From positions 22,165 to 86,164 of the forward strand of contig CAZQRQ010000006.1 in assembly GCA_964595725.1 (NCBI GenBank): a DNA stretch of 64,000 nucleotides. The letters run 5' to 3'. The stretch comes from an uncultured Rikenellaceae bacterium. GTDB lineage: Bacteria; Bacteroidota; Bacteroidia; Bacteroidales; VadinHA17. Below the pieces are notes generated by a model that was not told where the DNA came from, made no database searches, and saw only the letters and a program-made list of their open reading frames with translations. Both the position numbers and the translations under genes were made by a program. This document shows, piece after piece, positions 23,023-56,217 of the stretch (the first letter of the stretch is position 1; every line of letters starts with the position of its first letter).

Positions 23023-23178
23023 ATAATATTTTGATGGAAATTAATTTAGTGGCAAAAATAGAATTATTTGATTACAAAGCGAATATTTTTAAAAGCTATA
23101 ATGACTATAAAGGCAACATGTGTCATATGTTGCAACAGACAATAGTATTTACAGATGCTATAATACAGAAAGATTAAT

Positions 23179-23292: not shown

Positions 23293-23706
23293 CTACAAAT
23301 ACTTCCTGTCTTCTTCAGGCAGGTCGAAGTATTTATTGTAGAGATTGGCGTCAGGGCCCTGCTTTTCAATCTGATGACCACTTATCTTATAGGTACATTT
23401 TTCTCCGGCTATATCGGAAAAGTAAATGTCATATTCTTTCCTGTTATCATCCACCATTATAATCCTGACGAGGTGATCATACTTAGCACTGTTAAGCCTT
23501 GAATGACAGATCGGGCATGTATACAAAAACTCCTCTCCCTGCTCTATTGAAAATGAGTGATGAGTTGTTATTGTATAGTTTCCAAGCTCAGGATTAAGAT
23601 ATACCAATCCTCTTTTTGCGTTTTTTAAATTCTGTGCAGCCAGCACAATGGATGTTTTTACATTGAGCACACCCCTGCAAGCTTTACATAAAAACTCAGT
23701 AGCCAT
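23293..23706 (-). CDS. hypothetical Zn-ribbon protein, last gene of the hydrogenase operon
   Basis: 137 aa with two CxxC pairs (CKAC near the N-terminus, CPIC mid-protein). It overlaps the endopeptidase gene by 11 nt. I do not recognise a family. Confidence 0.6.
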   Translation of the reverse strand: MATEFLCKACRGVLNVKTSIVLAAQNLKNAKRGLVYLNPELGNYTITTHHSFSIEQGEEFLYTCPICHSRLNSAKYDHLVRIIMVDDNRKEYDIYFSDIAGEKCTYKISGHQIEKQGPDANLYNKYFDLPEEDRKYL

Positions 23707-24163
23707 TTTGCACCTCCTGTTTATTAATTAATTGAACAATTTTGTTTGCTTCTTCCATTACAAGATATGAAATATTTTCTCCGAAATCAATACTAAATGG
23801 CTGAATCCCCAGTATGCAGGAAGGGAACTTGAAGAAGCCCGTCAGTTTGCTGATAGAGATATTATGAGTATTGAATGTAAGGTCCGCTGTCTTACCCGCC
23901 TCAATTAGAGCGCTTTCTCCCGGAGTGGTTTTCATATCCACACAATCTAAGATTACAAGTATATCCGGGTTGATGGAATTTATCTTTCCGAGGTAGTTTT
24001 CAAGGCTAACTTCTACTGTAAGAGATTTTATTCTTACGTTTTCCTTAATTCTGGAACTTATATATACTCCAACGCCGTCATCCTGCCTCAGGACATTTCC
24101 AACTCCCACGAATAAGATTCTTTTCCAGGGACCTCTAAGGAGGTTTTCAAGATCGGCCGACAC
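23696..24163 (-). CDS. [NiFe] hydrogenase maturation endopeptidase (HycI/HybD family)
   Basis: 155 aa. ILFVGVGNVLRQDDGVGV signature, plus conserved Asp (LDCVD) and His (FNTHNIS). Confidence 0.85.
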   Translation of the reverse strand: MSADLENLLRGPWKRILFVGVGNVLRQDDGVGVYISSRIKENVRIKSLTVEVSLENYLGKINSINPDILVILDCVDMKTTPGESALIEAGKTADLTFNTHNISISKLTGFFKFPSCILGIQPFSIDFGENISYLVMEEANKIVQLINKQEVQNGY

Positions 24164-24165
24164 TT

Positions 24166-24795
24166 TTAGATATATTTTACCAGGACAAGCCTTAAACAGT
24201 TAGGGCAAAGAATATTGAACATATCCTTTCTCTTAAGATCATCTTTGATATCCACCTCCACGTCATTGCCTTCGGCCAGCTTCAACCTGTCATTTAGTGT
24301 GTTGAGATTCAGAATTGATGAAAAGGCCTTCGGACCCAGCTTATTGTGAAGATAATTAAGGTGATCGACAGTTGTAATGACAGTGTTGCAGTTTCTGCAT
24401 ACAATGAGTTCCTTTTCCTGTTTTTCTACATTGAGAGAACGATCGAACTGAGCCATATCATAAATCGTGTCCGAAAGTATGACTCCCTTTCCTGTAATAC
24501 AATGTTCCTGGCATTGTCCGCAAAAAATACACTTGCCAAAATCCCTGGTTATTGTCCGTAACCTGTTGACAGGATCATCAATGAATGTAATTGCTTCCGA
24601 AGGACAAACATTGGCACATGTTTCGCATCCCACACAGTTTCCGTCGTCAACAACCGGTTTCCCCCTGAAATCCTTGTATGGGATATGAGGTTTCTTGGGA
24701 AACTTGGAAGTATAGGCAGGTGTTACAAGTGATGTAACAGCCTCTTTGAGCTCTCTTATTTTTGGATATTTCATTTCACCTGGTTTTATAATCAT
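24166..24795 (-). CDS. NuoI/MbhN/HycF-like 2x[4Fe-4S] subunit with a C-terminal CxxC..CxxC extension
   Basis: 209 aa with CVGCETCANVCP and CIFCGQCQEHC, followed by CRNC ... CPNC about 80 aa later. An alternative start at 24774 avoids overlap with the upstream gene. Confidence 0.8.
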   Translation of the reverse strand: MIIKPGEMKYPKIRELKEAVTSLVTPAYTSKFPKKPHIPYKDFRGKPVVDDGNCVGCETCANVCPSEAITFIDDPVNRLRTITRDFGKCIFCGQCQEHCITGKGVILSDTIYDMAQFDRSLNVEKQEKELIVCRNCNTVITTVDHLNYLHNKLGPKAFSSILNLNTLNDRLKLAEGNDVEVDIKDDLKRKDMFNILCPNCLRLVLVKYI

Positions 24796-25087
24796 CCTTC
24801 ACACTCCGGTCGCTCATTTTCACTCCGAAAAGGTAAGTTCCTCTTATCAGTGCATGTGCTGCTACTGTAGAGGTAAAGAAGAGAAGCGGTATTGCAATGA
24901 GGGCCTTCATTCCTCCATTGTTTATACCGAAGTGAAACAGAACCCCGAGCAGAATGCTGCAGGTACCCAGCGTGACACATTTTGTTGCAGCCTGGAGCCT
25001 GTTGTAAACATCAGGCAGACGCAACAATCCTATGCAGCCGAAAATGTTGAACAGTACACCTATGCTTATTAATATTAATGAAACCAT
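24776..25087 (-). CDS. MrpG/MnhG-like antiporter subunit
   Basis: 103 aa. The GCIGLLRLPDVYNRLQAATK motif is typical of MnhG/PhaG. Confidence 0.8.
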   Translation of the reverse strand: MVSLILISIGVLFNIFGCIGLLRLPDVYNRLQAATKCVTLGTCSILLGVLFHFGINNGGMKALIAIPLLFFTSTVAAHALIRGTYLFGVKMSDRSVKDDYKTR

Positions 25088-25088
25088 A

Positions 25089-25355
25089 TCACTCGTTTAG
25101 TTTTTTCCCGCTTAAATATTTTGCCAGCGTGATAGTACCGATGAAGCTCAGTATAATCCAGGCAATACCTATATCAAGAATGAAGGATCTGTCGGTTTGC
25201 ACCGAGATTATAGCACAGATCCCTACAACAAGAATTCCGAAAATATCTATGCCAACCATCCGGTCTGGGATTGTCGGGCCTCTTACGATCCTGTAAAGGC
25301 ATATGGCTGACAAGCCTATAAGGATATAAAGCAGTATATTCAGATAGTCACTCAT
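25089..25355 (-). CDS. MrpF/MnhF-like antiporter subunit
   Basis: 88 aa, 3 TM helices. The YRIVRGPTIPDRMVGID motif is typical of MnhF. Confidence 0.8.
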   Translation of the reverse strand: MSDYLNILLYILIGLSAICLYRIVRGPTIPDRMVGIDIFGILVVGICAIISVQTDRSFILDIGIAWIILSFIGTITLAKYLSGKKLNE

Positions 25356-25837
25356 TCGACAATTTTTTTAATATATTTTTCAAATGCACCCATTATCATC
25401 CCTGTATATACCTCCGGGTCGTCCGAACGGATATATATCCAGTGTATATAAAAATAGTCCCCGATAATATCGACTGTAAGAGTCCCGGGCGTCATAGTGA
25501 TTGAATTGGCTAAAAGTGTTCTTGCAAAGCCTGAAGTAAGGGTTGTCCTTACCTTAACAATTCCAGGTTTTATCGGCATCGCGGGATGAAGAACCCTGTA
25601 TGCAACATCAATATTTGCCTTGATGCATGACCATGTAAACACAAACAGGTAAATAATGAACCAGAAGTACCTGTGAGGTTGAAGGAACTTCTTAACATCA
25701 TGGAAATAATACCTGGCAAATATTAAGGAACATATCAGGGAAGCTATCGCCCCGACAATAATATTTGAGGCCGTGAAACTGAATGTGATCAGCAGCCAGA
25801 ATATAATTCCCAATACAAAAATCGCTATATATCTCAT
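25352..25837 (-). CDS. MrpE/MnhE-like antiporter subunit
   Basis: 161 aa. Two N-terminal TM helices and a soluble C-terminal domain containing the TMTPGTLTVD motif. Its position between the MrpD-like and MrpF-like genes fits. Confidence 0.75.
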   Translation of the reverse strand: MRYIAIFVLGIIFWLLITFSFTASNIIVGAIASLICSLIFARYYFHDVKKFLQPHRYFWFIIYLFVFTWSCIKANIDVAYRVLHPAMPIKPGIVKVRTTLTSGFARTLLANSITMTPGTLTVDIIGDYFYIHWIYIRSDDPEVYTGMIMGAFEKYIKKIVE

Positions 25838-25838
25838 A

Positions 25839-27377
25839 TCACATACCTAGTATTGCCGATGAATAATCACCTGGATTTAACAGTACATTAATTGCAGGGG
25901 TGAGTATATCTTCACGTAATGACGGTATTGCCAGAAGGCTGAGAAGCAGGCACATCAAAGCCATGATTATCATGCTGAATACCATCGGGAACGGAACTTC
26001 CTTAACTTTGCTGCGTTTTGCCTCCTGGTCCTGGTTGTGGAATGCATACCTCTGGAACTTCATGAAAGATGCTAGTGTGATAATGCTTGCCAGGACTGCC
26101 AGTGCAGCAAGAAGATAGAACCTTGCCATTACGGCAGCAATAATAATAATCAGTTTACTGAAAAACCCGTTAAATGGTGGAATTCCTGCTATAGAGAGTG
26201 AGGCAATCATCGATGTTGATGATGTGGCCGGCATAGCTTTTGCCAGGCCTCCCATTTCTTTCAGATCACGGGCACCTGTCGAATACTCTATAGCACCTGC
26301 ATTTAGGAAAAGCAAACCTTTGAAAGCAGCATGGTTGATAAGATGAAAAAGACCTCCTGTAAGTGCAAGAACTGCCACTTCATGCTTTATTCCCTTTGAT
26401 AACAGTATCATGCCCATTCCTGCAGCTAGTACAACATATCCCATTTGGCTTATGCTGTGATAAGCCAGGAGCCTCTTGATATCCCATTGTTCAATAGCCA
26501 GGAAGACACCTATCACCATCGAAACTGCTCCAAGGGTTGTCAAAAGGACTGCCATTGGAGTACTTATCTCGAACATGTTAAAGAATAGCCGTATAATTAC
26601 ATAGATACCTATAGCCTTAATCAATACACCTGAAAGCATGGCTGAAATGGGGGAGGGGGCTGATGAATGGGCGTCAGGAAGCCAGGAATGAAACGGTATT
26701 ATCGCTGCCTTTAGTCCAAAGCCGCTTAGAATCAGTAATTGTACAAAAAGATAATATTTCCTCTCGTAACCTTGAGAGAAGGCTTCCCTGATATCAGCTA
26801 TATTCAGAGTTTTTGCTTTCCAGTAGATAAGGCCTATGCCAAAAAGAATCAGGAAGGATGCCAGTCCCCCGAGAACCTGGTATTTGAAAGTTGCCTCCAG
26901 TTCAGGCTTCTCCACACCAAAAGCAACCAGGGCATAAGAAGAAATAGCTGATATTTCAACAAATACAAAAATATTAAAAATGTCTCCGCTAAGAACTACC
27001 CCGTTCATTCCTGCTATCATAAGACAGAAAAGAGAATAGAAATAATTTCCTGAAGTGTACCGGCTGATATATGAGATGGAGTATATTACAGCCAGGAATC
27101 CGAGTACATTTATAATACAGAGAATGATCACATTAAAGCTGTCGAGAACCATATATATTCCGACAGGTACATTGTTTACAGGTGCCCAGCCCCCAACCCT
27201 GTATACGGAAAACCCTCCTGTATTTCCTGCCAGTGCTGAAACAGAAAGCACAACAAGAGATAAAAGCAGCAGGCTGGCAAGATACTTGTTCAACTCCCTG
27301 AAGAATTTTCCGAGTATCATTATCAGGAAAGCTCCTGCTAATGGTATAACAACAAATAATGGCAACATCGGATTCAT
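25839..27377 (-). CDS. MrpD / NuoM/N-like proton-conducting antiporter subunit
   Basis: 512 aa polytopic membrane protein with complex I antiporter-like motifs (WLPDAHSSAPSPISAMLSG, LAYHSISQMGY). Confidence 0.85.
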   Translation of the reverse strand: MNPMLPLFVVIPLAGAFLIMILGKFFRELNKYLASLLLLSLVVLSVSALAGNTGGFSVYRVGGWAPVNNVPVGIYMVLDSFNVIILCIINVLGFLAVIYSISYISRYTSGNYFYSLFCLMIAGMNGVVLSGDIFNIFVFVEISAISSYALVAFGVEKPELEATFKYQVLGGLASFLILFGIGLIYWKAKTLNIADIREAFSQGYERKYYLFVQLLILSGFGLKAAIIPFHSWLPDAHSSAPSPISAMLSGVLIKAIGIYVIIRLFFNMFEISTPMAVLLTTLGAVSMVIGVFLAIEQWDIKRLLAYHSISQMGYVVLAAGMGMILLSKGIKHEVAVLALTGGLFHLINHAAFKGLLFLNAGAIEYSTGARDLKEMGGLAKAMPATSSTSMIASLSIAGIPPFNGFFSKLIIIIAAVMARFYLLAALAVLASIITLASFMKFQRYAFHNQDQEAKRSKVKEVPFPMVFSMIIMALMCLLLSLLAIPSLREDILTPAINVLLNPGDYSSAILGM

Positions 27378-27380
27378 CTT

Positions 27381-27719
27381 TTACCCTCTTAAGTTTTTAA
27401 TCTCCCTGATATCGAATGTCTTGTATTTTCTGTATATCCTTATTATTACCGCCATAAGCATTGCAGTTGTAGCCAGGCCGATCACAATTGCGGTAAGTAC
27501 AAGTGCCTGCGGAAGCGGATCCACATAGTTCTTTATCGGATCAGACGGATCTACTATTGGGGCAACACCACCTTCCCTGTATCCGATGAGTGCCAGGAAA
27601 AGAAAGGTGCTGAACTCAATGATACTTAGTGATATCACTATCTTAATCAGGTTCCTTCTTGTAAACACGCCGTACAATCCGGTCAGGAACAATATGAAGC
27701 ATAAAATGTAAACTATCAT
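27381..27719 (-). CDS. MrpC / NuoK-like subunit
   Basis: 112 aa, 3 TM helices. NuoK/MnhC-like, with LTAIVIG..A and embedded Glu residues. Confidence 0.8.
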   Translation of the reverse strand: MIVYILCFILFLTGLYGVFTRRNLIKIVISLSIIEFSTFLFLALIGYREGGVAPIVDPSDPIKNYVDPLPQALVLTAIVIGLATTAMLMAVIIRIYRKYKTFDIREIKNLRG

Positions 27720-28153
27720 TTCGACATTTCTTCTTTGAAAATTATGAGAGCAAGGAAGATGGAAAGCACTGATGCTGCTACTTCTATGCCAATAAAAATA
27801 TTATAAAGCGGTAGTGTACCGGCACTGACCAGCTCTCCGGTAACTCCCCTGGGCAGCCAGTTATTGAAGAAAATTCCGGTACCAGCCAGCAGGCCTGCTG
27901 TCGCAATCATTAATGCAATAAGTATTGCCAGGTTCTCTATCAGTGTGGTACCTGTTTCTTCATTTAAAAGTTTAATAAAATCACTTCCAAATGCAAGTAT
28001 CACCAGGATAAATGAACCGGCAAGGATCACACCCCCTGCAAAACCGCCTCCGGGAGTAAGATGCCCGTGCACAATTACATAAATACCGTAAAGAAACACA
28101 AGCCCCGCTATCAGCTGGGTAGTTTTCTTTACTATTACCGTCATCCCTTTCAT
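27716..28153 (-). CDS. MrpB/MnhB-domain subunit
   Basis: 145 aa, 4 TM helices. Has the GHLTPGGGFAGGV motif of the MnhB domain. Confidence 0.75.
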   Translation of the reverse strand: MKGMTVIVKKTTQLIAGLVFLYGIYVIVHGHLTPGGGFAGGVILAGSFILVILAFGSDFIKLLNEETGTTLIENLAILIALMIATAGLLAGTGIFFNNWLPRGVTGELVSAGTLPLYNIFIGIEVAASVLSIFLALIIFKEEMSK

Positions 28154-28172
28154 TTAAGCAGATTTTAAATAA

Positions 28173-28700
28173 TTACTTTTTACCTTTTATCCTTAAAACT
28201 GTCAGTACACCAATAACTGCCGTAACAAGCACCGTAGCCTCTCCCAGAGTATCATAACCCCTGAAGTCAAATATTACTCCTGTAACAAGGTTGGCACTGC
28301 CTGTTTTTGAAGCTGCTCCGTCTATATACGTCTCGGCCATCCTCAGGTTACCTTCCCCGAACGGGGCAAGGGTAGAAGCGGCAGATTTGAAAAAGTATAG
28401 CAGTACAAGGAGGATAAGGACAGCTGATATGGCATTTATGTAGCCCTGCCTGTCAGGTTTTGTGAAAGCCTCCTCACGTGAGCTGTCAAGGACCACGGCA
28501 ACCATTATTACAAGCGAGATAGTCTCCACAACAATCTGTACTATTGCCAGGTCGGGTGCTCTTAGTAAAAGGAAACATATAACGAGTCCGTAGCCCACTA
28601 TACCACCTGATATAACTGCCGAAAGAAGGTCCCTGGCATGAATGGCATAGAGAGCCCCGAAGATCATTAAGACAATTATAACCGAAATAGCCACTTCCAT
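28173..28700 (-). CDS. MbhD/MbhE-like subunit (equivalent to the C-terminal part of MrpA)
   Basis: 175 aa, hydrophobic. It sits between the NuoL-like and MrpB-like genes, where the MrpA C-terminal domains are expected. DUF4040-like pattern. Confidence 0.65.
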
Positions 28701-28715
28701 AGAAGCCTCTTTTAA

Positions 28716-30620: not shown

Positions 30621-31822
30621 TTTCTGCTATTATGCTTTTCCATTATTTCTCCGGTTAAAGTGGCCGATGAACTAATAAGCTCATTGGCGTTCATCAGCCT
30701 GACCCCGGAGTTAATATCAAATACAGCAGCCATCCTCTCTGTGCAGCAGTAACATGGATCAACGGCTGCCAGTGAAATGGTGGCATCCGAAATACTCTGG
30801 CCAATGCACGATTTCCGGAAAGTTGCAATATTGACGTAGCTTGGAGCCCTTATTTTATGTCGTGCCGGTGAGTTGGACCCATCCGAGAAGACACAGTGAA
30901 ATACTTCGCCTCTTGGTGCTTCAGCACGCCCCGTTCCCATTCCCTCAGGTATCTCCTTGATCTTAGCAGCTATTTCACCCTCTTTAAGCTTCCTTAAGGC
31001 TGCAAGACACTGTTCTATAATGGAGATCGATTCATACATCTCGAGAAGCCTGACCTCTGCCTTTGCATAGACATCGCCCGTTTCGGCTGTTATTACTTTC
31101 CAGTTAACCAGATCATAAGCTGCATAGGGATCATCTTTCCTGACATCAATAGCCACTCCCGACGCCCTGGCTGTCGGGCCAACAGCTGCATAATCAAGTA
31201 TATCCTGCTTTGTAAGGATGCCGACACCTTTAGTCCTGGCATGAATTACAGGATCATCCATCACAGCTCCCGTCAGCAGGTCTGTCTTTTTCTTAAGTTC
31301 TCCTAGAACTTTTTCCACAGATGGTATTTTGTGTGCTTCTATGTCTCTCCTGACTCCCCCTATCTTGAACATGGCATAGCTGTTCCTGTTTCCTGTTATC
31401 ATTTCGAAAAGTTCAAGCACCGGTTCGCGGTATTTCCATGCCCACATGAAGACCGTATTGTAACCGAGGAAATGTCCGGCCAGCCCAACCCATAGAAGAT
31501 GGCTGTGAATTCTTTCCAGCTCCCCGATTATGGTCCTTATATATTTAGCCCTGTCGGGTATTTCCTCGTTCACTATCTCTTCCACGGCATTGGCGAATGC
31601 GAAAGGGTGGGAGGTGGAGCATATTCCGCAGATCCGCTCTACAAGGAAGAATACCTGGTCATAAGTTTTGGATTCTGAGAGTTTCTCTATACCACGATGG
31701 TTGTATCCTGTTTCCCACTTGATATCCCTGACAATTTCCCCGTCACAGTAAAGTTTGAAAAGTTCAGGCTCTTCCTGCAGTGGGTGATACGGACCGATTG
31801 GTATTAATGTTGGTTTGCTCAT
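30617..31822 (-). CDS. group-4 [NiFe] hydrogenase large (catalytic) subunit, NuoD/MbhL/EchE-like
   Basis: 401 aa. N-terminal ligand motif ERICGICSTSH, C-terminal DPCYCCTER, then a 38-aa tail. Confidence 0.9.
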   Translation of the reverse strand: MSKPTLIPIGPYHPLQEEPELFKLYCDGEIVRDIKWETGYNHRGIEKLSESKTYDQVFFLVERICGICSTSHPFAFANAVEEIVNEEIPDRAKYIRTIIGELERIHSHLLWVGLAGHFLGYNTVFMWAWKYREPVLELFEMITGNRNSYAMFKIGGVRRDIEAHKIPSVEKVLGELKKKTDLLTGAVMDDPVIHARTKGVGILTKQDILDYAAVGPTARASGVAIDVRKDDPYAAYDLVNWKVITAETGDVYAKAEVRLLEMYESISIIEQCLAALRKLKEGEIAAKIKEIPEGMGTGRAEAPRGEVFHCVFSDGSNSPARHKIRAPSYVNIATFRKSCIGQSISDATISLAAVDPCYCCTERMAAVFDINSGVRLMNANELISSSATLTGEIMEKHNSRK

Positions 31823-31830
31823 ACTTCAGA

Positions 31831-32268
31831 TCATTTGAACTCTTTTCTGTAGGGATAAACACCTTCTGCCCAGTTGCCTTCAGAGATAAGCTTCTCCTGG
31901 TTCGGATGGTTTATGAAATCGATGCCGAAAAGTTCATGCATCTCACGTTCTATCCAGTTTGAAGCGTTAAACATGTTAGAAAGAGATTCAATGTGAGGGT
32001 TTTCATGACTCAGCATTACATGTATATTAAGCACCAGCCCCGTCTCGTCCTTGCTGAAATGGTAATGTATCTCGAATCCCGTCCTGGTATGAAGTGCAGA
32101 TGCAATTATGAACCTCAGCCCTGCGTCTTTGTAAAGATGCTCAGCCATGCCTGTAATTGCCTCCGGATTAATAGTTATGGTTACCCTCTTCTCATTTTTC
32201 ACGGCAATATTCAGGATGTAAGCCCTGAACTTCTCTTGAATCTTGTTTATAATCTCTTCCGTATTCAT
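31831..32268 (-). CDS. NuoC/MbhK-like hydrogenase subunit
   Basis: 145 aa with an ANWIEREMHELFGIDF motif (NuoC/30 kDa family). Confidence 0.85.
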   Translation of the reverse strand: MNTEEIINKIQEKFRAYILNIAVKNEKRVTITINPEAITGMAEHLYKDAGLRFIIASALHTRTGFEIHYHFSKDETGLVLNIHVMLSHENPHIESLSNMFNASNWIEREMHELFGIDFINHPNQEKLISEGNWAEGVYPYRKEFK

Positions 32269-32334
32269 CTGTATTCATTTTCCATTTCTTGCTCACCTCT
32301 TTCATTTACCATCCGGGGAGGTGATTCCTGGGTG

Positions 32335-32745
32335 CTATTTTCCGGCAAGTTTCACTATACCTGCAATTATTGCTTCTGGTTTTGGCGGACACCCCGGAAT
32401 ATATGCATCAACCGGTATTATTTTATCGACTGGACCAGCAAAAACATTTCCCTCGGCAAAGATGCCCCCTGTGCACCCGCAGGCTCCTATTGCAACGACA
32501 AGAACAGGTTTCGGTGCCTGGTTATATATCTCCAGCAGCCTGTCGCGATCGCGCCTGTTAATGGAACCATTTACAAGGAGTACATCGGCATGTCGTACAC
32601 TGCCGACCAGCAATATTCCAAATCTTTCCAGGTCGTGCTTCGGGGTGAGGCAGTCCAGGATCTCGATGTCACAGTTATTACAGGACGCCCCGCCGAAGTG
32701 GAAAATCCAGAGTGATTTTTTGAAGCAATAGCTTTTAAAACCCAC
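32335..32745 (-). CDS. NuoB/MbhJ-like hydrogenase small subunit (proximal 4Fe-4S)
   Basis: 136 aa with the Cys ligands GGASCNNC, GACGCTGG and IPGCPP. Confidence 0.9.
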   Translation of the reverse strand: MGFKSYCFKKSLWIFHFGGASCNNCDIEILDCLTPKHDLERFGILLVGSVRHADVLLVNGSINRRDRDRLLEIYNQAPKPVLVVAIGACGCTGGIFAEGNVFAGPVDKIIPVDAYIPGCPPKPEAIIAGIVKLAGK

Positions 32746-32757
32746 AGCTTTCTGTAT

Positions 32758-33690
32758 TTAATATCCAAATATTATCAACACTATAGCAATCACAGCAAGC
32801 AGATTCATCCATATCATGAAGAAGCTCATTGCCTGTTTTATCTTAAGCCTGGGATTGGTGTTTCTTATAAGAGTCAGAAGCAGCACAATGCCCAGTATCT
32901 TTAACACTGCCCAGAGTATGTTAACACCGGTGAGGTTGATACCATTCATCATCAGAGCAGTAATAAAAGCCGGTAGAATAAAGAACATGATGTACTTTGT
33001 CAGCTTTATTAGTGCGTAGGCAGAACCTGAATACTCAATAAAAGCACCTTCGGTTATTTCAGTTTCAGCCTCAGCCATATCGAACGGAACAAGAGCAAGC
33101 TTAGCCTGTATGCAGAAAACAGCCACAATGAACAGCAGTACGCCTGAAACACTTCCTATGAAAGGAGACCCGTTCTGCTGGGCTTCAATTATACCATTAA
33201 TATCAATATGCTGTCCGGCCTTCATTACAATGCCCGCCACAACCAGGATAAATGTAAGCTCATAGCTGAGGATCAGTTTCATTTCCCTTGATGCCCCTAC
33301 CGCCGCGAGTGGATTGCCTGATGCTAAAGCTCCTATTACATAAGAGAATGATGGTATTGTAAGAAGGTAAAACACGACGAGCACATCTCCTTTAAAACCT
33401 GTTGCAATGTTAAAAAGCGGTAGCAGGATAAAGACAGAAGCCATAGTTGCCCCGAAAAGAGCGAAGATGGGTGCAAGCAGGAAGATCAGGGGTGATCCCT
33501 GTTTTGGCAATATTGTCTCCTTTACCAGCAGCAACTTGAAGAAATCGTAGAATGGCTGTAATATTGGAGGCCCTTTCCTGAACTGGAGCCGCGCTGTTAT
33601 TTTCCTGTCGAACCAGGAGAGAAATCCCCCCGTTATCCCGGAAAATAAGAGACCGGGAAAGACAAGAAAATAAAAGAGATAGGCTGCCAT
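32758..33690 (-). CDS. NuoH/MbhM/HycD-like membrane subunit
   Basis: 310 aa, ~8 TM helices. Motifs RKITARLQFRKGP and PFDMAEAETE, the latter being the NuoH signature. Confidence 0.85.
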   Translation of the reverse strand: MAAYLFYFLVFPGLLFSGITGGFLSWFDRKITARLQFRKGPPILQPFYDFFKLLLVKETILPKQGSPLIFLLAPIFALFGATMASVFILLPLFNIATGFKGDVLVVFYLLTIPSFSYVIGALASGNPLAAVGASREMKLILSYELTFILVVAGIVMKAGQHIDINGIIEAQQNGSPFIGSVSGVLLFIVAVFCIQAKLALVPFDMAEAETEITEGAFIEYSGSAYALIKLTKYIMFFILPAFITALMMNGINLTGVNILWAVLKILGIVLLLTLIRNTNPRLKIKQAMSFFMIWMNLLAVIAIVLIIFGY

Positions 33691-33700
33691 AACTAATATA

Positions 33701-34198
33701 TTACTGATTATCCTGTTTATAAATTATATCCTTGACAAGAACCTTATCATTAAGCTTGAAAATGTTTGATCCTGGAGCTTCCCTGGCATCTGTGATTGTA
33801 ACTGTACCCGGGGGACATGCAGCAACAAATTTTTCCATCTCCGACGTATCACTCAGATTGTAAAACAGATCCCTGTTGCGGTGATGACTGAAAAAATCGA
33901 CCATCATTGTCCCGAATGGGCATATTGTAACACACGATTTACACGACACACAGAGATTGGTATAACGATTAATTACACCCTCCTCATCTTTTTCAAGTGC
34001 TTCGGCAGGACATGCAGCTATACATGGAGCATCTTCGCATTTTCTGCATGTATACCTGAAGGTCGCCAGTTCAATGATACTTTTAAGGCCGTTATTGTTA
34101 GGCTGAATGTAGAAAAATCCTTCAGGTAGTTTTCTCTGCGGATTTTCTGCCATTGCTGCCCGAAGCCTTATCATATCTATCAATATCTTTTGCGCCAT
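33701..34198 (-). CDS. HycB-like 2x[4Fe-4S] ferredoxin-domain electron-transfer subunit
   Basis: Motifs CRKCEDAPCIAACP and CVSCKSCVTICP. I chose the start at MAQKILID (34198), 1 nt after the upstream stop. The track start at 34267 would overlap the upstream gene by 68 nt. Confidence 0.75.
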   Translation of the reverse strand: MAQKILIDMIRLRAAMAENPQRKLPEGFFYIQPNNNGLKSIIELATFRYTCRKCEDAPCIAACPAEALEKDEEGVINRYTNLCVSCKSCVTICPFGTMMVDFFSHHRNRDLFYNLSDTSEMEKFVAACPPGTVTITDAREAPGSNIFKLNDKVLVKDIIYKQDNQ

Positions 34199-34199
34199 A

Positions 34200-35024
34200 T
34201 CAGTTCCAGATGTTGGGTTGATCCTTAATCTCATCATAGGTAAATACCGGCCCGTCCTTGCAGACAAAGTATTTTCCCATCATGCAGTGTCCGCATTTTC
34301 CAAGTCCGCACGACATGTTTTTCTCCATAGAGAGGTATATATCATGCTCTGGATATCCCATCTGAAGCAATTTCAGAGTTCCAAACTTCATCATTATTGG
34401 CGGGCCGCAGACCACGGCAATAGAGTTATCAATGTCGACTTTAACATCATCAAGCAGCACAGTAACAACCCCGACACGCTCGGTCCAGGTGTCATCCCCT
34501 CTGTCAACGCTCCTCAGTACCTCAAATTTCGGAGTATCGCGGAGTACCGAGATATATGGCTTGTAGATACAATCCTCAGGCGTTTTCGATCCATAACAAA
34601 GAGTTACCTTTCTCAGCTTGTCGGAGATTGCTATAAGCGAATACAGTAATGATCTTATAGGAGCAAATCCGCAACCTCCTCCCAGGATCAGCACCTCCTT
34701 GTCGTAAAATTTCTCAACGGGATATCCTCTCCCGTATGGCCCTCTTATGCCCATATATGATCCCGGCTTCATATTGTGCATGTATTCAGTAACATATCCG
34801 GTCTTCATGATTGTGACCTCAATCGTGTCTTTTACTAGTGGTGATGAAGATGGTGTGAAGGGAGCCTCGCCTATATTTTCAACCGATAATTCAATAAACT
34901 GACCTGTTCCGAACGAAAATTCCTCCTGGGGAGAGAGCACAAAAGTCCTGATCAGAGGTGATTCCTCAATAACGTCTGTCAATTTTGCCCTTATCGGCCT
35001 GTATATGTTCTTTTTATTAGGCAT
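34200..35024 (-). CDS. FNR-fold FAD/NAD(P)-binding protein with C-terminal [2Fe-2S] (sulfhydrogenase gamma / AsrB / PyrK-like)
   Basis: 274 aa. FAD motif APFTPSS, nucleotide motif LILGGGCGFAPI, C-terminal cluster CGLGKCGHCMMGKYFVC. Confidence 0.85.
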   Translation of the reverse strand: MPNKKNIYRPIRAKLTDVIEESPLIRTFVLSPQEEFSFGTGQFIELSVENIGEAPFTPSSSPLVKDTIEVTIMKTGYVTEYMHNMKPGSYMGIRGPYGRGYPVEKFYDKEVLILGGGCGFAPIRSLLYSLIAISDKLRKVTLCYGSKTPEDCIYKPYISVLRDTPKFEVLRSVDRGDDTWTERVGVVTVLLDDVKVDIDNSIAVVCGPPIMMKFGTLKLLQMGYPEHDIYLSMEKNMSCGLGKCGHCMMGKYFVCKDGPVFTYDEIKDQPNIWN

Positions 35025-35030
35025 ATCGGC

Positions 35031-36023
35031 TTATTTTGCCAGTTCCCTGAATATTTCATTTTTGTTGATCCTTCCGATGCATGCTTCAATGCACCTGCCG
35101 CAGCCTGTACAGGCCACTGACCTGAACCGCGCCGGTTTCCATACATACTTGCATTTATACCTGTTCATGAATCTGAGAGATAGCTCATGAAGGGCATCCT
35201 CGCCTCCCGCAACCCTTTCAAATCCCGGATACTGACATGCATCCATCTGCTTGACTTTGTGAAATCCGGGTTTGTCAAGCAGGAGGAAGCAGCTGCAGGT
35301 AGGACAAATGGTCGTGCATGCACCACACGAAACGCATTTGCCGGAGTATTTCTCCCAGACTCCCATACCAGCGTTCTCGACCAGCTTCCCCGTGGCTTTA
35401 TAGTCGGGTAAACCTGTATTGGAAGCATTCAGGAGCACCCCGACTTCCTTTCTTTTCTTGTCTATATATGCTTCAATATCACGGTCATTCATGATATTAA
35501 CACCTTCAAGCCGTTGTATCAGCGCTGCACCTTTATCAGAAATATCCCTGAGGATCACAGAACCATTGTACAGAATTACCGAGATATCAGCATTTCTTTC
35601 AGCAAATGGACTAATACCATATGCAGTACAGTGGCAATGTTCCTGAATATTAAAACAATCAGTTGAGATTATCAGCGTGTTTTCCCTTCTGTTCCTGTAA
35701 AAGATATCCTCAAAAGTATCATCAAGATATATCTCGTCAAGAATATTCAAAGCCTCAACATCACAATTGGGAACTCCAATTATTATCCTGGGCCTGTCCC
35801 CTTTGGGAAGGGACGATACATTTTCCTTGACAGGCAGGAAAAAGCTCTTGAGAGGAGTAACGGGCTTTGCCTTATTATAACTTATTTCGGCTATATTTAC
35901 CGATGACAGGATCTGATAATCTTGAGTATTTCCGTTATTTACCGAAGCATAAATCAGGAAATCTCCGGTCAGACCTTCCAGATTCCTATCCCATTTCTCC
36001 CTATTAATTATATGATATTTCAT
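35031..36023 (-). CDS. 4Fe-4S dicluster protein (sulfhydrogenase beta / AsrA-like), first gene of the hydrogenase operon
   Basis: 330 aa with CVSCGACTTICPTCSCF and CTGCGRCIEAC, plus additional Cys (CHCTAYG). Confidence 0.8.
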   Translation of the reverse strand: MKYHIINREKWDRNLEGLTGDFLIYASVNNGNTQDYQILSSVNIAEISYNKAKPVTPLKSFFLPVKENVSSLPKGDRPRIIIGVPNCDVEALNILDEIYLDDTFEDIFYRNRRENTLIISTDCFNIQEHCHCTAYGISPFAERNADISVILYNGSVILRDISDKGAALIQRLEGVNIMNDRDIEAYIDKKRKEVGVLLNASNTGLPDYKATGKLVENAGMGVWEKYSGKCVSCGACTTICPTCSCFLLLDKPGFHKVKQMDACQYPGFERVAGGEDALHELSLRFMNRYKCKYVWKPARFRSVACTGCGRCIEACIGRINKNEIFRELAK

Positions 36024-36025
36024 TT

Positions 36026-36043
36026 ATGTGAGAAGTATCACAT
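36026..36043. promoter_or_regulatory. Rex-type operator candidate 1 (ATGTGAGAAGTATCACAT)
   Basis: Perfect TGTGA-N6-TCACA palindrome 3 nt upstream of the ATG of the first hydrogenase-operon gene. It resembles the Rex consensus TTGTGAAnnnnTTCACAA. Confidence 0.55.
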
Positions 36044-36210: not shown

Positions 36211-36228
36211 ATGTGAAACAAATCACAA
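36211..36228. promoter_or_regulatory. Rex-type operator candidate 2 (ATGTGAAACAAATCACAA)
   Basis: TGTGAA-N4-(A)TCACAA palindrome with 2 mismatches to the 14 specified consensus positions. It overlaps the GTG start (36213) of rex itself. Confidence 0.6.
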
Positions 36229-41439: not shown

Positions 41440-41449
41440 TACTACAATT

Positions 41450-41791: not shown

Positions 41792-41793
41792 AT

Positions 41794-45856: not shown

Positions 45857-45869
45857 TACCAGGACAGAC

Positions 45870-47030: not shown

Positions 47031-47044
47031 AACAAGAAGACATC

Positions 47045-56196: not shown

Positions 56197-56217
56197 TTCA
56201 CCATAGCCTCTACTGCC

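What the first reader, a model, noticed from the sequence alone, without database searches (positions are those of the whole stretch)
23293..36023. 18-gene operon: Mrp-coupled group-4 [NiFe] hydrogenase with an NAD(P)H-type flavoprotein input module
Eighteen minus-strand genes run from 36023 to 23293 with tiny gaps or overlaps. In order they are: an AsrA/HydB-like FeS protein, an FNR-fold FAD/NAD(P) + 2Fe-2S protein, a HycB-like ferredoxin, NuoH-, NuoB- and NuoC-like subunits, and a [NiFe] large subunit with all four Cys ligands (RICGICSTSH, DPCYCCTER). Next comes a complete Mrp set in canonical order: MrpA split into a 634-aa NuoL-like and a 175-aa MbhD/E-like protein, then B, C, D, E, F and G. 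The operon ends with a NuoI-like subunit, the endopeptidase and a Zn-ribbon protein. The characterised Mrp-linked group-4 enzymes I know take electrons from ferredoxin (archaeal Mbh) or from formate dehydrogenase or CODH (Mrp-linked hydrogenlyases). None of those partners is encoded here. The only candidate electron entry/exit module is the nucleotide-binding flavoprotein pair. Given standard potentials (H+/H2 about -414 mV, NAD+/NADH about -320 mV), such a complex could run either way. It could conserve energy from H2-dependent NAD(P)+ reduction, or use the ion gradient to vent NAD(P)H as H2. I do not recognise this architecture as a characterised enzyme, and a bacterial (Bacteroidota-like) host is unusual for Mbh-type complexes.
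Basis: partly seen in the sequence, partly recalled or inferred. Interest (0 to 1): 0.8.

Follow-up and report, generated by a model that had tools for sequence, protein, structure and literature searches.

The report
NAD(P)H-linked Mrp-type membrane [NiFe] hydrogenase
This is an 18-gene operon for a membrane-bound, ion-pumping hydrogen enzyme whose only encoded electron entry point looks like an NAD(P)H-binding flavoprotein; the design is common in uncultured anaerobic Bacteroidales, sits under an NADH-sensing repressor, and has never been tested biochemically.

Summary
Eighteen tightly packed minus-strand genes (23293-36023) encode the following:
- homologues of the beta and gamma subunits of P. 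furiosus sulfhydrogenase I;
- a HycB-type ferredoxin;
- a complete group-4 [NiFe] hydrogenase core;
- a full Mrp set;
- a HycI protease;
- a conserved Zn-ribbon protein.

All cofactor ligands are conserved.

New here: the operon faces a divergent rex-hypFCDEAB operon. The window's only two TGTGA-N6-TCACA boxes lie in that 190-bp gap, and 52 of 56 related loci keep a box there.

The architecture is collinear in 44 of 45 complete Bacteroidales loci. It recurs in Planctomycetota and other metagenome lineages, sometimes with an extra degenerate molybdopterin-like subunit.

The large subunit is only 40% identical to MbhL and 37% to HycE, and forms its own clade.

Best reading: a reversible, ion-coupled NAD(P)H:H+ oxidoreductase, induced when NADH accumulates. 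This is inferred and not shown.

Similar clusters ('Mbh-Mrp-oxidoreductase') were noted in Saganbacteria and Elusimicrobia with function unknown.

Verdict: a new variant of a known kind, interest about 0.65.

The parts
35031..36023 (-). g1, beta subunit: AsrA/HydB/ShyB-like multi-[4Fe-4S] protein (330 aa)
   Evidence: Pfam Fer4_22. NCBIfam ShyB 6e-40, HydB and AsrA, all below the curated cut-offs. The only PDB match is P. furiosus sulfhydrogenase I beta, 9nez_B, 3.7e-31, with all Cys aligned. 15 of 16 Cys are at least 98% conserved in 82 orthologues and one is 81% conserved.
34200..35024 (-). g2, gamma subunit: FNR/PyrK-fold flavoprotein with FAD, NAD(P)H and [2Fe-2S] sites (274 aa)
   Evidence: Pfam FAD_binding_6, NAD_binding_1 and DHODB_Fe-S_bind. 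Best PDB match is sulfhydrogenase I gamma, 9nez_C, 4.5e-47, followed by NqrF and PyrK. GGGxGxxP, CGPP and CxxxxCxxC...C are conserved in 91 orthologues of 33-90% identity.
33701..34198 (-). g3, HycB/HydN-type 2x[4Fe-4S] connector ferredoxin (ORF runs to 34267 from a TTG; probable ATG start at 34198, 165 aa)
   Evidence: Pfam Fer4_11. PDB matches are HDCR HycB3/HycB4 and E. coli FHL HycB 7z0s_B. Eight cluster Cys are 100% conserved in 71 orthologues.
32758..33690 (-). g4, NuoH/HycD/MbhM-like membrane anchor
   Evidence: Pfam NADHdh 4.6e-64.
32335..32745 (-). g5, NuoB-like hydrogenase small subunit with one [4Fe-4S]
   Evidence: Pfam Oxidored_q6 1.7e-31. C22, C25, C89 and C119 are 100% conserved in 138 relatives.
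31831..32268 (-). g6, NuoC-like subunit
   Evidence: Pfam Complex1_30kDa 1.2e-22. It is fused to the large subunit in the Planctomycetota sister clade.
30617..31822 (-). g7, [NiFe] large subunit (401 aa) with L1 RICGICSTSH, L2 DPCYCCTER and a 38-aa C-terminal extension after the Arg
   Evidence: Pfam Complex1_49kDa + NiFeSe_Hases. It aligns over its whole length to MbhL 6cfw_L and HycE 7z0s_E. Identity is 40% and 37%, in a separate NJ clade. The four ligand Cys are 100% conserved in 162 relatives.
28716..30620 (-). g8, NuoL/MrpA-N-like antiporter subunit (634 aa)
   Evidence: Pfam Proton_antipo_M. It aligns end to end with the NuoL model NF005141 (query 24-633 to model 8-609 of 615).
28173..28700 (-). 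g9, C-terminal part of MrpA (MbhD + MbhE domains)
   Evidence: Pfam MbhD and MbhE. It matches residues ~600-790 of the MrpA models.
27716..28153 (-). g10, MrpB/MnhB
   Evidence: Pfam MnhB 7.3e-24.
27381..27719 (-). g11, MrpC/NuoK-like
   Evidence: Pfam Oxidored_q2 3e-29.
25839..27377 (-). g12, MrpD-like second large antiporter subunit (512 aa)
   Evidence: Pfam Proton_antipo_M 1e-65. NCBIfam antiporter subunit D 1.4e-120.
25352..25837 (-). g13, MrpE
   Evidence: Pfam MNHE 1.6e-40.
25089..25355 (-). g14, MrpF
   Evidence: Pfam MrpF_PhaF 1.4e-14.
24776..25087 (-). g15, MrpG
   Evidence: Pfam PhaG_MnhG_YufB 2.1e-23.
24166..24795 (-). g16, NuoI/HycF-like 2x[4Fe-4S] subunit with two extra conserved CxxC pairs near the C-terminus
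   Evidence: NCBIfam FHL iron-sulfur subunit 1.7e-26 and NuoI. All 12 Cys are at least 96% conserved.
23696..24163 (-). g17, HycI-type maturation endopeptidase
   Evidence: Pfam HycI. NCBIfam hycI 9.4e-22 and hydrog_prot above its cut-off.
23293..23706 (-). g18, conserved 137-aa Zn-ribbon-like protein (CxxC...CPxC, C-terminal PEEDRKYL), function unknown
   Evidence: No Pfam or NCBIfam hit. It is present in all 45 complete Bacteroidales loci at 43-78% identity. It is absent from the Planctomycetota loci. The AF2 model was unusable.
36027..36042 (.). Rex-type operator 1, TGTGAGAAGTATCACA, ending 3 nt upstream of the g1 start codon
   Evidence: It is one of only two TGTGA-N6-TCACA sites in 64 kb, against 0.04 expected. 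A box at the same offset (about 19-20 nt from the start) is seen in most of 56 related loci.
36212..36227 (.). Rex-type operator 2, TGTGAAACAAATCACA, overlapping the rex start codon
   Evidence: All 100 occurrences of the motif in 1.34 Mb of related loci fall in this intergenic region.
36213..36893 (+). rex, redox-sensing (NADH/NAD+) repressor, divergent from g1 and first gene of the hyp operon
   Evidence: Pfam Put_DNA-bind_N + CoA_binding. NCBIfam Rex NF003996 scores 212.6 bits against a cut-off of 138. It is divergent upstream of beta in 54 of 54 loci.
36893..42438 (+). hypF (36893-39136), hypC (39127-39357), hypD (39354-40439), hypE (ORF 40327-41439), hypA (41450-41791), hypB (41794-42438): the full [NiFe] maturation set
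   Evidence: Pfam hits. hypA is identified from its MHE... start and CxxC...CxxC pattern.
23113..23133 (-). Terminator-like hairpin between g18 and the downstream transketolase gene (20983-23022)
   Evidence: Consensus scan only. It lies in the 270-nt gap after g18.

Best explanation
The 18 genes encode one membrane complex: a group-4 energy-converting [NiFe] hydrogenase joined to a complete Mrp-type cation/proton antiporter module. Its peripheral arm is extended by a HycB-type ferredoxin and a beta/gamma pair of the sulfhydrogenase-I type.

Proposed electron path (inferred by homology): NAD(P)H -> FAD -> [2Fe-2S] in gamma -> the [4Fe-4S] clusters of beta -> the 2x[4Fe-4S] of the HycB-like g3 -> the 2x[4Fe-4S] of the NuoI-like g16 -> the [4Fe-4S] of the NuoB-like g5 -> the NiFe site in g7, where 2H+ <-> H2.

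Redox turnover at the NuoB/NuoD/NuoH interface would be coupled to H+/Na+ movement through g8-g15. The enzyme would therefore be a reversible, ion-coupled NAD(P)H:H+ oxidoreductase. At low H2 it vents NAD(P)H as H2 near equilibrium. At higher H2 the ion gradient drives that reaction. In reverse, H2 oxidation would reduce NAD(P)+ and build a gradient.

A dedicated Rex repressor would switch on the operon and its hyp maturation genes when NADH/NAD+ rises. That points to NADH disposal, meaning H2 evolution, as the main physiological direction.

Shown here: gene content, cofactor motifs, synteny, operator conservation and phylogenetic separateness. Inferred: physical assembly, the electron path, nucleotide use, direction and the coupling ion.
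For: 1. Tight operon. Gaps are at most 66 nt, and only 1-10 nt around g1-g4.
2. Beta and gamma match the solved NADPH-dependent sulfhydrogenase I beta and gamma (9nez) best, or uniquely. All Cys ligands and the FAD, NAD(P) and 2Fe-2S motifs are present. They are conserved in 82-91 orthologues down to 25-33% identity.
3. g3 belongs to the HycB family. In FHL (7z0s) and HDCR (7qv7) that family wires a soluble dehydrogenase to a hydrogenase (plus established knowledge).
4. beta-gamma-HycB-core-Mrp-NuoI-HycI is collinear in 44 of 45 complete Bacteroidales loci. The same order is found in Planctomycetota. It is also found in every metagenome locus whose large subunit is at least 56% identical and that reaches far enough; 13 of 20 of those have no other candidate input subunit.
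5. Rex passes its curated cut-off. The only two TGTGA-N6-TCACA boxes in 64 kb (0.04 expected) flank the rex-g1 gap. 52 of 56 related loci keep a box there, and no other copy occurs in 1.34 Mb.
6. The NiFe ligands, HycI, a cleavable C-terminal extension and the full hypFCDEAB set argue for an active hydrogenase.
7. No FDH or CODH is encoded in or near the operon.
Against: - There are no biochemical or expression data.
- NCBIfam scores for beta and gamma are far below the equivalog cut-offs, so they are relatives of ShyB/ShyC/AsrA/AsrB and not members.
- NADH versus NADPH cannot be read from the sequence.
- NAD(P)H -> H2 is uphill at standard conditions, so an ion-consuming mode would cost the cell energy.
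- The same window already encodes a trimeric NuoEF-type [FeFe] hydrogenase that could remove NADH.
- Rex regulons in other anaerobes include ferredoxin-dependent hydrogenases, so Rex control does not prove that NADH is the direct substrate (own knowledge).
- Sister loci carry an extra MopB-like subunit between gamma and HycB. An Ech-like family has a true FdhA next to beta-gamma. Beta-gamma may therefore have originated as part of a formate-linked module.
- Ferredoxin could still dock at g16, as it does at MbhN in P. furiosus Mbh.
- Single-sequence AF2 models of gamma and g18 failed, so there is no structural check of the nucleotide pocket.
Confidence: 0.55

Rival explanations
1. Ferredoxin-driven Mbh-type hydrogenase with a side branch. 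Reduced ferredoxin, for example from PFOR, is the main donor at the NuoI-like or HycB-like subunit, as assumed for all 'group 4g' enzymes. Beta/gamma form a second port that lets the same complex exchange electrons with NAD(P)+. The complex is then a three-way Fd / NAD(P)H / H2 hub, or an Rnf-like Fd:NAD(P)+ oxidoreductase with H2 as overflow.
For: - The closest solved enzyme, P. furiosus Mbh, takes ferredoxin at MbhN, the homologue of g16 (plus established knowledge).
- Published genome papers uniformly presume ferredoxin coupling for Mrp-linked bacterial group-4 enzymes (PMC8542988, PMC9324843, PMC7886697).
- Ferredoxin-driven H2 evolution is exergonic enough to pump ions, which fits a full Mrp module better than NADH-driven evolution does.
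Against: - Mbh itself needs no HycB-like or beta/gamma subunits. Here three extra redox genes are strictly conserved with the core across phyla.
- In the group-4 enzymes with known structures, the ones that have a HycB/CooF connector are wired to a dedicated dehydrogenase (established knowledge).
- No ferredoxin or PFOR gene is linked to the operon.
Confidence: 0.2
2. Beta, gamma and the HycB-like protein form a separate soluble enzyme, for example an NAD(P)H:ferredoxin or NAD(P)H:polysulfide oxidoreductase. It is merely co-transcribed with a conventional Mrp-Mbh hydrogenase and talks to it only through a diffusible carrier.
For: - Beta/gamma-like pairs work in several soluble enzymes, including sulfhydrogenase and AsrABC.
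- Nothing here shows physical contact, and no multimer modelling was possible.
Against: - The gene order beta-gamma-HycB-NuoH is invariant, with 1-10 nt junctions.
- The module co-evolves with the core over large distances. Beta is 26-33% identical and the large subunit 56-60% identical in the same loci.
- HycB-family proteins are structural bridges in FHL and HDCR.
Confidence: 0.08
3. Formate hydrogenlyase-type enzyme whose formate dehydrogenase is encoded elsewhere in the genome and docks on the HycB-like subunit. Beta/gamma are an accessory.
For: - E. coli fdhF is unlinked to hyc (established knowledge).
- The sister clade carries a MopB-superfamily gene exactly between gamma and HycB.
- An Ech-like family has a bona fide FdhA (Pfam Molybdopterin 4e-51) next to beta-gamma.
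- The Saganbacteria cluster also has a molybdopterin oxidoreductase (PMC6349859).
Against: - The MopB-like proteins of the sister clade are extremely divergent. One has no Pfam hit and no PDB hit at E<0.01; the other has only weak NuoG/FdhA hits. They look like degenerate scaffolds.
- 64 Bacteroidales loci and 13 of 20 other loci lack the MopB-like gene entirely.
- No MopB gene is present in the 64-kb window.
Confidence: 0.07
4. Membrane-bound 'sulfhydrogenase'. Beta/gamma act as a sulfur or polysulfide (or sulfite) reductase, using electrons from H2 or from the membrane complex, by analogy with the S0-reducing activity reported for P. furiosus hydrogenase I and with AsrAB.
For: - Beta/gamma are annotated 'sulfhydrogenase subunit beta (sulfur reductase)' by JGI.
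- They hit the AsrA and AsrB models.
Against: - No AsrC (siroheme) gene is present.
- The in-vitro S0 reduction of sulfhydrogenase is not considered physiological (own knowledge).
- NiFe ligands, HycI and Hyp genes point to H2 chemistry, and Rex control points to NADH balance.
Confidence: 0.04

Closest known systems
P. furiosus membrane-bound hydrogenase Mbh (HydDB group 4d; PDB 6CFW)
   Same: Both have the NuoB/C/D/H/I-type hydrogenase core plus MrpB, C, D, E, F, G and MbhD/E-type subunits. Mbh gives the best PDB hit for the large subunit (8.9e-82). Both would couple H2 chemistry to Na+/H+ movement.
   Different: - The large subunit is only 40% identical and sits in a separate NJ clade.
- Here there are two large antiporter-like subunits (NuoL/MrpA-like and MrpD-like) instead of one.
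- Gene order differs: here the hydrogenase core comes first, then Mrp, then NuoI.
- Here there are three extra redox subunits (beta, gamma, HycB-like) and a HycI protease.
- Mbh takes ferredoxin directly.
Formate hydrogenlyases: E. coli FHL-1 (group 4a, PDB 7Z0S) and Mrp-linked Fdh-Mfh-Mnh / CODH-Mch-Mnh of Thermococcus onnurineus (group 4b)
   Same: - A HycB-type connector ferredoxin sits between a soluble dehydrogenase module and the NuoI-like subunit.
- The large subunit has a HycE-like DPCY.CT.R|M cleavage context together with a HycI protease.
- The 4b enzymes also carry a full Mrp/Mnh module (own knowledge).
   Different: - No FdhF or CODH is encoded.
- The large subunit is 37% identical to HycE and lies outside its clade.
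- The input module is a flavoprotein pair. Only sister clades keep a degenerate MopB-like subunit.
P. furiosus soluble sulfhydrogenase I (group 3b; PDB 9NEZ), beta and gamma subunits
   Same: Beta keeps all Cys, and gamma is about 45% identical and keeps the FAD, NAD(P)H and [2Fe-2S] motifs. These are the best or only PDB matches. In SHI this pair carries electrons between NADPH and the hydrogenase dimer.
   Different: In SHI the pair is attached to a cytosolic group-3 alpha/delta dimer. Here it is encoded with a membrane-bound group-4 core and connected through a HycB-like protein. NCBIfam scores are far below the ShyB/ShyC/HydB/HydG cut-offs.
'Mbh-Mrp-oxidoreductase type' clusters of Saganbacteria RX5A and groundwater Elusimicrobia (PMC6349859; bioRxiv 10.1101/765248)
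   Same: These clusters combine hydrogenase and Mrp-like subunits with cooF, asrA and asrB in one region. The authors suggest these form an oxidoreductase module of unknown function. They match the Planctomycetota variant found here.
   Different: Those clusters include a molybdopterin oxidoreductase, which the window's operon lacks. Neither paper proposes NAD(P)H coupling, Rex control or a Bacteroidota distribution. I could not compare sequences directly.
Respiratory complex I (NuoA-N)
   Same: The functional logic is the same. An NADH-oxidising flavoprotein module feeds an Fe-S chain into the NuoB/D/H junction, which drives antiporter-like subunits. The MopB-like relic in sister clades parallels the Mo-free MopB domain of NuoG.
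   Different: - The acceptor is H+ at a NiFe site, not quinone.
- The NADH module is an FNR/PyrK-fold FAD protein plus an AsrA-like protein, not NuoEF (FMN).
- The membrane arm is a full Mrp set.

Membership tests
Group 4 (energy-converting, membrane-bound) [NiFe] hydrogenases | Large subunit of NuoD type with L1 (C[GS][ILV]C[AGNS]xxH) and L2 ([DE][PL]Cx[AGST]Cx[DE][RL]) NiFe-binding motifs | tested here: met
   L1 is CGICSTSH. L2 is DPCYCCTER, where only position 5 (Cys instead of A/G/S/T) departs from the published pattern (motifs as quoted in PMC7886697). The four ligand Cys are 100% conserved.
Group 4 (energy-converting, membrane-bound) [NiFe] hydrogenases | Core of NuoB-like small subunit, NuoC-, NuoH- and NuoI-like subunits and at least one antiporter-like subunit | tested here: met
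   Pfam hits for all of them.
Group 4 (energy-converting, membrane-bound) [NiFe] hydrogenases | H2-evolving or H2-consuming activity coupled to ion translocation | not testable with these tools
   Needs enzyme assays.
Mbh-type, ferredoxin-coupled Mrp-linked hydrogenase (HydDB 4d) | Large subunit groups with P. furiosus MbhL | tested here: not met
   40% identity. The NJ tree of 77 cluster representatives places the window with P0241, P0242 and P0244, away from the MbhL clade (rough tree, no support values).
Mbh-type, ferredoxin-coupled Mrp-linked hydrogenase (HydDB 4d) | Mrp-derived small subunits (MrpB, C, E, F, G and MbhD/E) present | tested here: met
Mbh-type, ferredoxin-coupled Mrp-linked hydrogenase (HydDB 4d) | No dedicated dehydrogenase or connector subunits; ferredoxin binds MbhN directly | tested here: not met
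   Three additional conserved redox genes, g1-g3, are present.
Formate/CO-linked hydrogenlyases (HydDB 4a, 4b, 4c) | HycB/CooF-type connector ferredoxin | tested here: met
   g3 hits HycB of FHL and HycB3/4 of HDCR.
Formate/CO-linked hydrogenlyases (HydDB 4a, 4b, 4c) | Formate dehydrogenase or CODH catalytic partner | tested here: not met
   None is present in the operon or the 64-kb window. An unlinked gene elsewhere in the genome cannot be excluded.
Formate/CO-linked hydrogenlyases (HydDB 4a, 4b, 4c) | Large subunit groups with HycE | tested here: not met
   37% identity and a separate clade.
HydDB group 4g (heterogeneous, uncharacterised, presumed ferredoxin-coupled) | Assignment by the HydDB classifier | not testable with these tools
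   HydDB is not available here. Mrp-linked bacterial enzymes are usually reported as 4g (PMC8542988, PMC9324843), so this is the likely label.
Sulfhydrogenase (group 3b) beta/gamma diaphorase module | Beta with the full Cys set for its Fe-S clusters | tested here: met
   Residue-by-residue alignment to 9nez_B, with conservation shown.
Sulfhydrogenase (group 3b) beta/gamma diaphorase module | Gamma with FAD site, GGGxGxxP / CGP NAD(P)H site and C-terminal [2Fe-2S] site | tested here: met
Sulfhydrogenase (group 3b) beta/gamma diaphorase module | Partnered with group-3 alpha and delta subunits; scores above the NCBIfam ShyB/ShyC/HydB/HydG cut-offs | tested here: not met
   The partner is a group-4 core. 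Scores are 137 bits against a cut-off of 690 (ShyB) and 175 against 600 (ShyC).
Sulfhydrogenase (group 3b) beta/gamma diaphorase module | NAD(P)H oxidation activity and nucleotide preference | not testable with these tools
   The residues after the second beta-strand of the NAD domain (YGSKTPxD) are ambiguous. The AF2 model failed.
Anaerobic sulfite reductase AsrABC | AsrC siroheme catalytic subunit next to AsrA/AsrB | tested here: not met
   No such gene is present. AsrA and AsrB scores are below their cut-offs (116 against 323, and 207 against 289).
Rex regulon | Rex protein (winged-helix N-domain plus Rossmann NADH domain) | tested here: met
   NF003996 scores 212.6 bits against a cut-off of 138.
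Rex regulon | Palindromic operator with TGTGA-N6-TCACA core in the promoter region, conserved in relatives | tested here: met
   Two sites in the window against 0.04 expected. 52 of 56 loci keep one, and 100 of 100 occurrences are in this gap. The same core also fits CRP/FNR-type sites, so assignment to Rex rests on adjacency.
Rex regulon | NADH-sensitive binding of Rex to the operator | not testable with these tools
   Needs EMSA or ChIP.

The most novel reading that the evidence does not exclude
A widespread, previously unrecognised class of respiratory-type enzyme: a reversible, Na+/H+-translocating NAD(P)H:proton oxidoreductase, in effect a hydrogen-evolving analogue of complex I. In this reading a group-4 hydrogenase independently recruited an NAD(P)H dehydrogenase module of the FNR/AsrA type instead of NuoEF. 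In some lineages a degenerate molybdopterin subunit remains, as NuoG does in complex I. It would let fermenting and syntrophic Bacteroidales, Planctomycetota and others set the NADH/H2 balance directly against the membrane potential, under Rex control.
Probability: 0.45. Interest if true: 0.85.

Novelty: new variant of a known kind. Interest (0 to 1): 0.65.

Why it matters
Every characterised energy-converting [NiFe] hydrogenase takes electrons from ferredoxin, formate or CO. Direct coupling of the NAD(P)H pool to H2 through an ion-translocating complex has not been shown.

If the inferred wiring is right, three things follow:
1. It gives a one-enzyme route for NADH-dependent H2 production, or H2-dependent NAD(P)+ reduction with energy conservation. 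Models of fermentation and syntrophy currently assign this to Rnf plus a ferredoxin hydrogenase, or to confurcating [FeFe] enzymes.
2. It concerns organisms that are abundant in sediments, peat, digesters and guts. Close relatives of the large subunit occur in several hundred species-level genomes. H2 budgets inferred from 'group 4g = ferredoxin-coupled' annotations would therefore need revision.
3. It is a natural experiment in the modular evolution that produced complex I. A different NADH module and a fading MopB subunit are grafted onto the same NuoB/D/H/I-Mrp chassis.

The conserved Rex switch and the compact operon make it testable by cloning or in a cultured carrier.

Tried and rejected
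- **Structure models.** They gave pLDDT 47 and 31. No fold search was attempted, so the structural test of the nucleotide pocket was not done.
- **Source organism.** The exact-sequence look-up found no name for the window's large subunit and no contig record. Taxonomy rests on the labels of 81-87% identical MAG loci, which are Bacteroidales, many labelled Rikenellaceae.
- **Promoters and terminators.** The sigma-70 promoter scan is not meaningful for Bacteroidota and gave only background-level hits. Terminator-like hits inside genes were at chance level, 16 against 10.5 expected.
- **Literature.** Ten full-text searches found no biochemical characterisation and no description of this architecture in Bacteroidota. 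Papers on Staphylothermus, the millipede gut, digesters and Guaymas were not relevant.
- **Rejected: AsrABC sulfite reductase.** There is no AsrC.
- **Rejected: MBS/Mbx-type sulfane reductase.** The NiFe ligands are intact and MBS 6u8y_L is a much weaker hit (1e-48).
- **Rejected: flavin-based electron confurcation.** This is my own reasoning. Gamma resembles the non-bifurcating PyrK/NfnA-type flavoprotein, and no second nucleotide or ferredoxin site is evident.
- **NADH versus NADPH.** Comparison with SHI gamma, NqrF and PyrK was ambiguous.
- **HydDB subgroup.** It could not be assigned because no classifier or labelled reference set was available.

Full report
**1. Observation**

The ORF list shows 18 consecutive minus-strand ORFs from 36023 down to 23293. 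Junctions range from a 20-nt overlap to a 66-nt gap. The junctions that join the flavoprotein genes to the hydrogenase genes are 1-10 nt.

- beta, an AsrA/HydB/ShyB-like protein (Fer4_22);
- gamma, with FAD_binding_6 + NAD_binding_1 + DHODB_Fe-S_bind;
- a HycB/HydN-like Fer4_11 protein;
- NuoH-, NuoB- and NuoC-like subunits;
- a NuoD-type [NiFe] large subunit;
- a 634-aa NuoL/MrpA-like protein;
- a 175-aa MbhD+MbhE protein, which matches residues about 600-790 of the MrpA models;
- MrpB, C, D, E, F and G;
- a NuoI/HycF-like protein;
- HycI;
- a 137-aa protein with no family hit.

The large subunit carries RICGICSTSH and DPCYCCTER, followed by a 38-residue extension. This is the same cleavage context as in HycE. 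The third gene probably starts at the ATG at 34198.

Downstream, a 270-nt gap with a terminator-like hairpin precedes a transketolase gene.

**2. Surroundings**

The gene that diverges from g1 is rex. Its NCBIfam score is above the curated cut-off (212.6 against 138). The rex stop overlaps the start of hypF, and hypC, hypD, hypE, hypA and hypB follow.

The 190-bp rex-g1 gap holds the only two TGTGA-N6-TCACA palindromes in the 64-kb window, against 0.04 expected. One ends 3 nt before the g1 ATG. The other overlaps the rex start codon.

Among 56 related loci that contain both rex and beta, 52 have the box in this gap, and most have both boxes at the same offsets. All 100 occurrences of the motif in 1.34 Mb of related DNA lie in this gap. 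TGTGA-N6-TCACA is the core of the published Rex consensus TTGTGAAnnnnTTCACAA (own knowledge). It also fits CRP-type sites, so assigning it to Rex rests on adjacency. The most economical reading is that a dedicated NADH/NAD+ sensor controls both the hydrogenase operon and its maturation genes.

**3. The electron-input genes**

Beta has a single PDB match, the beta subunit of P. furiosus sulfhydrogenase I (9nez_B, 3.7e-31). Every Cys of that protein is aligned.

Gamma matches 9nez_C best (4.5e-47, about 45% identity), followed by NqrF and PyrK. It shares the FAD loop, GGGxGxxP, CGPP and the CxxxxCxxC...C [2Fe-2S] motif.

These positions are conserved across 82-91 orthologues reaching down to 25-33% identity. 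The Fe-S Cys are 98-100% conserved. The module is therefore under selection as a redox-active flavoprotein/Fe-S pair.

g3 belongs to the HycB family, which includes FHL HycB and HDCR HycB3/4. In solved complexes these proteins bridge a soluble dehydrogenase to a hydrogenase (established knowledge).

NCBIfam scores of beta and gamma are far below the equivalog cut-offs. They are relatives of ShyBC, HydBG and AsrAB, not members of those families. No AsrC is present. NADH versus NADPH preference could not be decided.

**4. Place of the large subunit**

The best solved relatives are MbhL (6cfw_L) and HycE (7z0s_E). Identities are 40% and 37%.

In a library clustered at 50% identity, only two full-length clusters reach 59% identity or more. 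All others are at 48% or less.

A rough NJ tree of 77 representatives puts the window with P0241 (its own cluster), P0242 and P0244. This group lies apart from the MbhL and HycE clades. The HydDB subgroup could not be assigned. Such enzymes are usually reported as the uncharacterised group 4g, 'none biochemically characterized' (PMC7886697).

**5. Distribution**

The large subunit has thousands of database relatives. The top 120 are 83-100% identical, and all that carry a label are labelled Bacteroidales or Bacteroidota.

The best 80 loci are all Bacteroidales MAGs, many labelled Rikenellaceae. Of these 80 loci:
- 45 are long enough to hold all 18 genes, and 44 of those are collinear (span 12.5-14.6 kb);
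- rex is divergent upstream of beta in 54 of 54 loci;
- hypF follows rex in 44 loci.

The nearest other clade (P0242, with NuoC fused to NuoD) is labelled Planctomycetota/Phycisphaerae. It has the same order, beta-gamma-X-HycB-NuoH-NuoB-NuoCD-MrpA...G-NuoI-HycI. X is a 536-596-aa protein with only faint NuoG/FdhA similarity and a retained N-terminal CxxCxxxC...C motif.

A metagenome scan seeded with the next clusters returned 80 diverse loci. Every locus whose large subunit is at least 56% identical to the window's, and that reaches far enough, has beta, gamma, HycB and the full Mrp set in the same order. Thirteen of 20 have no X gene.

Loci at 50% identity or below mostly lack beta/gamma. The exception is a second, Ech-like architecture: FdhA-beta-gamma-HycI-antiporter-NuoCD-NuoH-NuoI-NuoB. 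Beta/gamma modules have thus been joined to group-4 hydrogenases at least twice, often alongside a MopB protein.

**6. Literature**

- Saganbacteria RX5A was reported to have hydrogenase and Mrp-like genes together with a molybdopterin oxidoreductase, cooF, asrA and asrB that 'might compose an oxidoreductase module' (PMC6349859).
- Elusimicrobia have 'Mbh-Mrp-oxidoreductase type' enzymes whose oxidoreductase is of unknown function (10.1101/765248).
- Papers on Cloacimonadota, Omnitrophota and Auribacterota call Mrp-linked bacterial enzymes group 4g and assume ferredoxin coupling.
- Ten full-text searches found no biochemical study, no proposal of NAD(P)H coupling, and no description of the Bacteroidales form or its Rex control.

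**7. Mechanism**

The best-supported model is a single complex. In it NAD(P)H reduces FAD in gamma. Electrons then pass through the gamma [2Fe-2S], the beta clusters, g3, g16 and g5 to the NiFe site. Turnover is coupled to ion movement in the Mrp arm.

With E0' of about -320 mV for NAD(P)+/NAD(P)H and -414 mV for H+/H2 (established values), H2 evolution is uphill at 1 atm H2. It reaches equilibrium near 75 Pa H2 (my calculation). The enzyme should therefore be reversible. At low H2 it vents NADH near equilibrium. At higher H2 it spends the ion gradient to do so. In reverse it conserves about 18 kJ per mol of H2. De-repression by Rex at high NADH favours NADH disposal as the usual role.

Only the parts list, motifs, synteny and operators are shown. 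Assembly, substrate, direction and coupling ion are inferred. I put confidence at 0.55.

The rivals are:
- ferredoxin as the main donor, with beta/gamma as a side port (0.2);
- a separate soluble beta/gamma/HycB enzyme (0.08);
- an unlinked FdhF docking on g3 (0.07);
- sulfur or sulfite reduction (0.04).

**8. Verdict**

It is a conserved, Rex-controlled enzyme type present in several hundred species-level genomes.

It belongs to the group-4 [NiFe] hydrogenases. It fails the tests for the Mbh (4d) and FHL (4a/4b) families. It borrows its input module from the group-3b family.

It is a new variant of a known kind that has been partly glimpsed in other phyla and is untested biochemically. The claim that a Bacteroidota host is unusual should be dropped.

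Noticed in passing
window 36027-36042 and 36212-36227; rex 36213-36893; hypFCDEAB 36893-42438: A dedicated rex gene heads the hyp maturation operon, divergent from the hydrogenase operon. The window's only two TGTGA-N6-TCACA palindromes lie in the shared 190-bp control region. They are conserved in 52 of 56 related loci and found nowhere else in 1.34 Mb of those loci.
   Followed up: yes
window 45389-48826 (+): About 9 kb from the NiFe operon lies a trimeric [FeFe] hydrogenase cluster. It consists of a NuoE-like 2Fe-2S protein (45389-45856), a NuoF-like flavoprotein of only 386 aa (45870-47030) and HydA (47045-48826). This is a second, NADH-linked route to H2 in the same organism. No exact Rex-type box precedes it.
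   Followed up: partly
L081:6337-7947, L083:6273-8063 (Planctomycetota); also L105, L112, L113: Sister-clade operons carry an extra 536-596-aa gene between gamma and HycB. The protein is a very divergent MopB-superfamily member with faint NuoG/FdhA hits and a retained N-terminal CxxCxxxC...C motif. It may be a degenerate scaffold, like the MopB domain of NuoG.
   Followed up: partly
L141, L150, L156, L157, L160, L163 (e.g. L157:2359-14185): A second architecture links beta/gamma to a group-4 hydrogenase. The order is a true FdhA-like molybdoenzyme, beta, gamma, HycI, one antiporter-like subunit, fused NuoCD, NuoH, NuoI and NuoB, with no MrpEFG and no HycB. In L157 an IS200-type transposase gene (11156-11893) sits between NuoCD and NuoH.
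   Followed up: partly
window 23293-23706 (-): g18 is a 137-aa protein with invariant CxxC...CPxC and a conserved C-terminal PEEDRKYL. It has no family hit, always comes last in the Bacteroidales operon and is absent from the Planctomycetota version. It occupies the place that a maturation factor such as HycH might take. The AF2 model was unusable.
   Followed up: partly
window 30617-31822 (-), residue 359: The L2 motif reads DPCYCCTER. An extra Cys sits next to the NiFe ligand, where the published pattern allows A/G/S/T. This Cys is present in about 70% of 162 relatives.
   Followed up: no
window 263-3537 (+): A pyridine-nucleotide-disulfide-oxidoreductase-like flavoprotein (263-1297) is followed by a 634-aa protein with a 4Fe-4S dicluster domain and two CCG (HdrD/GlpC-type) domains (1633-3537). 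This may be another redox module.
   Followed up: no
window 54810-57885 (-) and 61135-63266 (+): Two further clusters were seen. The first is sulfate-assimilation-type genes: a CysN-like GTPase and two PAPS_reduct-family proteins. The second is the start of a molybdenum-hydroxylase cluster: XdhC-like, MobA/MocA-like nucleotidyltransferase and a CoxS-like 2x[2Fe-2S] subunit. Neither is adjacent to the hydrogenase.
   Followed up: no
L085:403-1721: One non-Bacteroidales locus has an additional gamma-like gene followed by a NuoB-like small-subunit gene upstream of the operon. This may be part of a soluble group-3b hydrogenase next to the membrane enzyme.
   Followed up: no
L051, L059, L077, L078: A divergent Bacteroidales sub-clade has a large subunit 81-82% identical and g18 43-46% identical. 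It keeps rex but has no exact TGTGA-N6-TCACA box in the control region, so the operator may have drifted.
   Followed up: no
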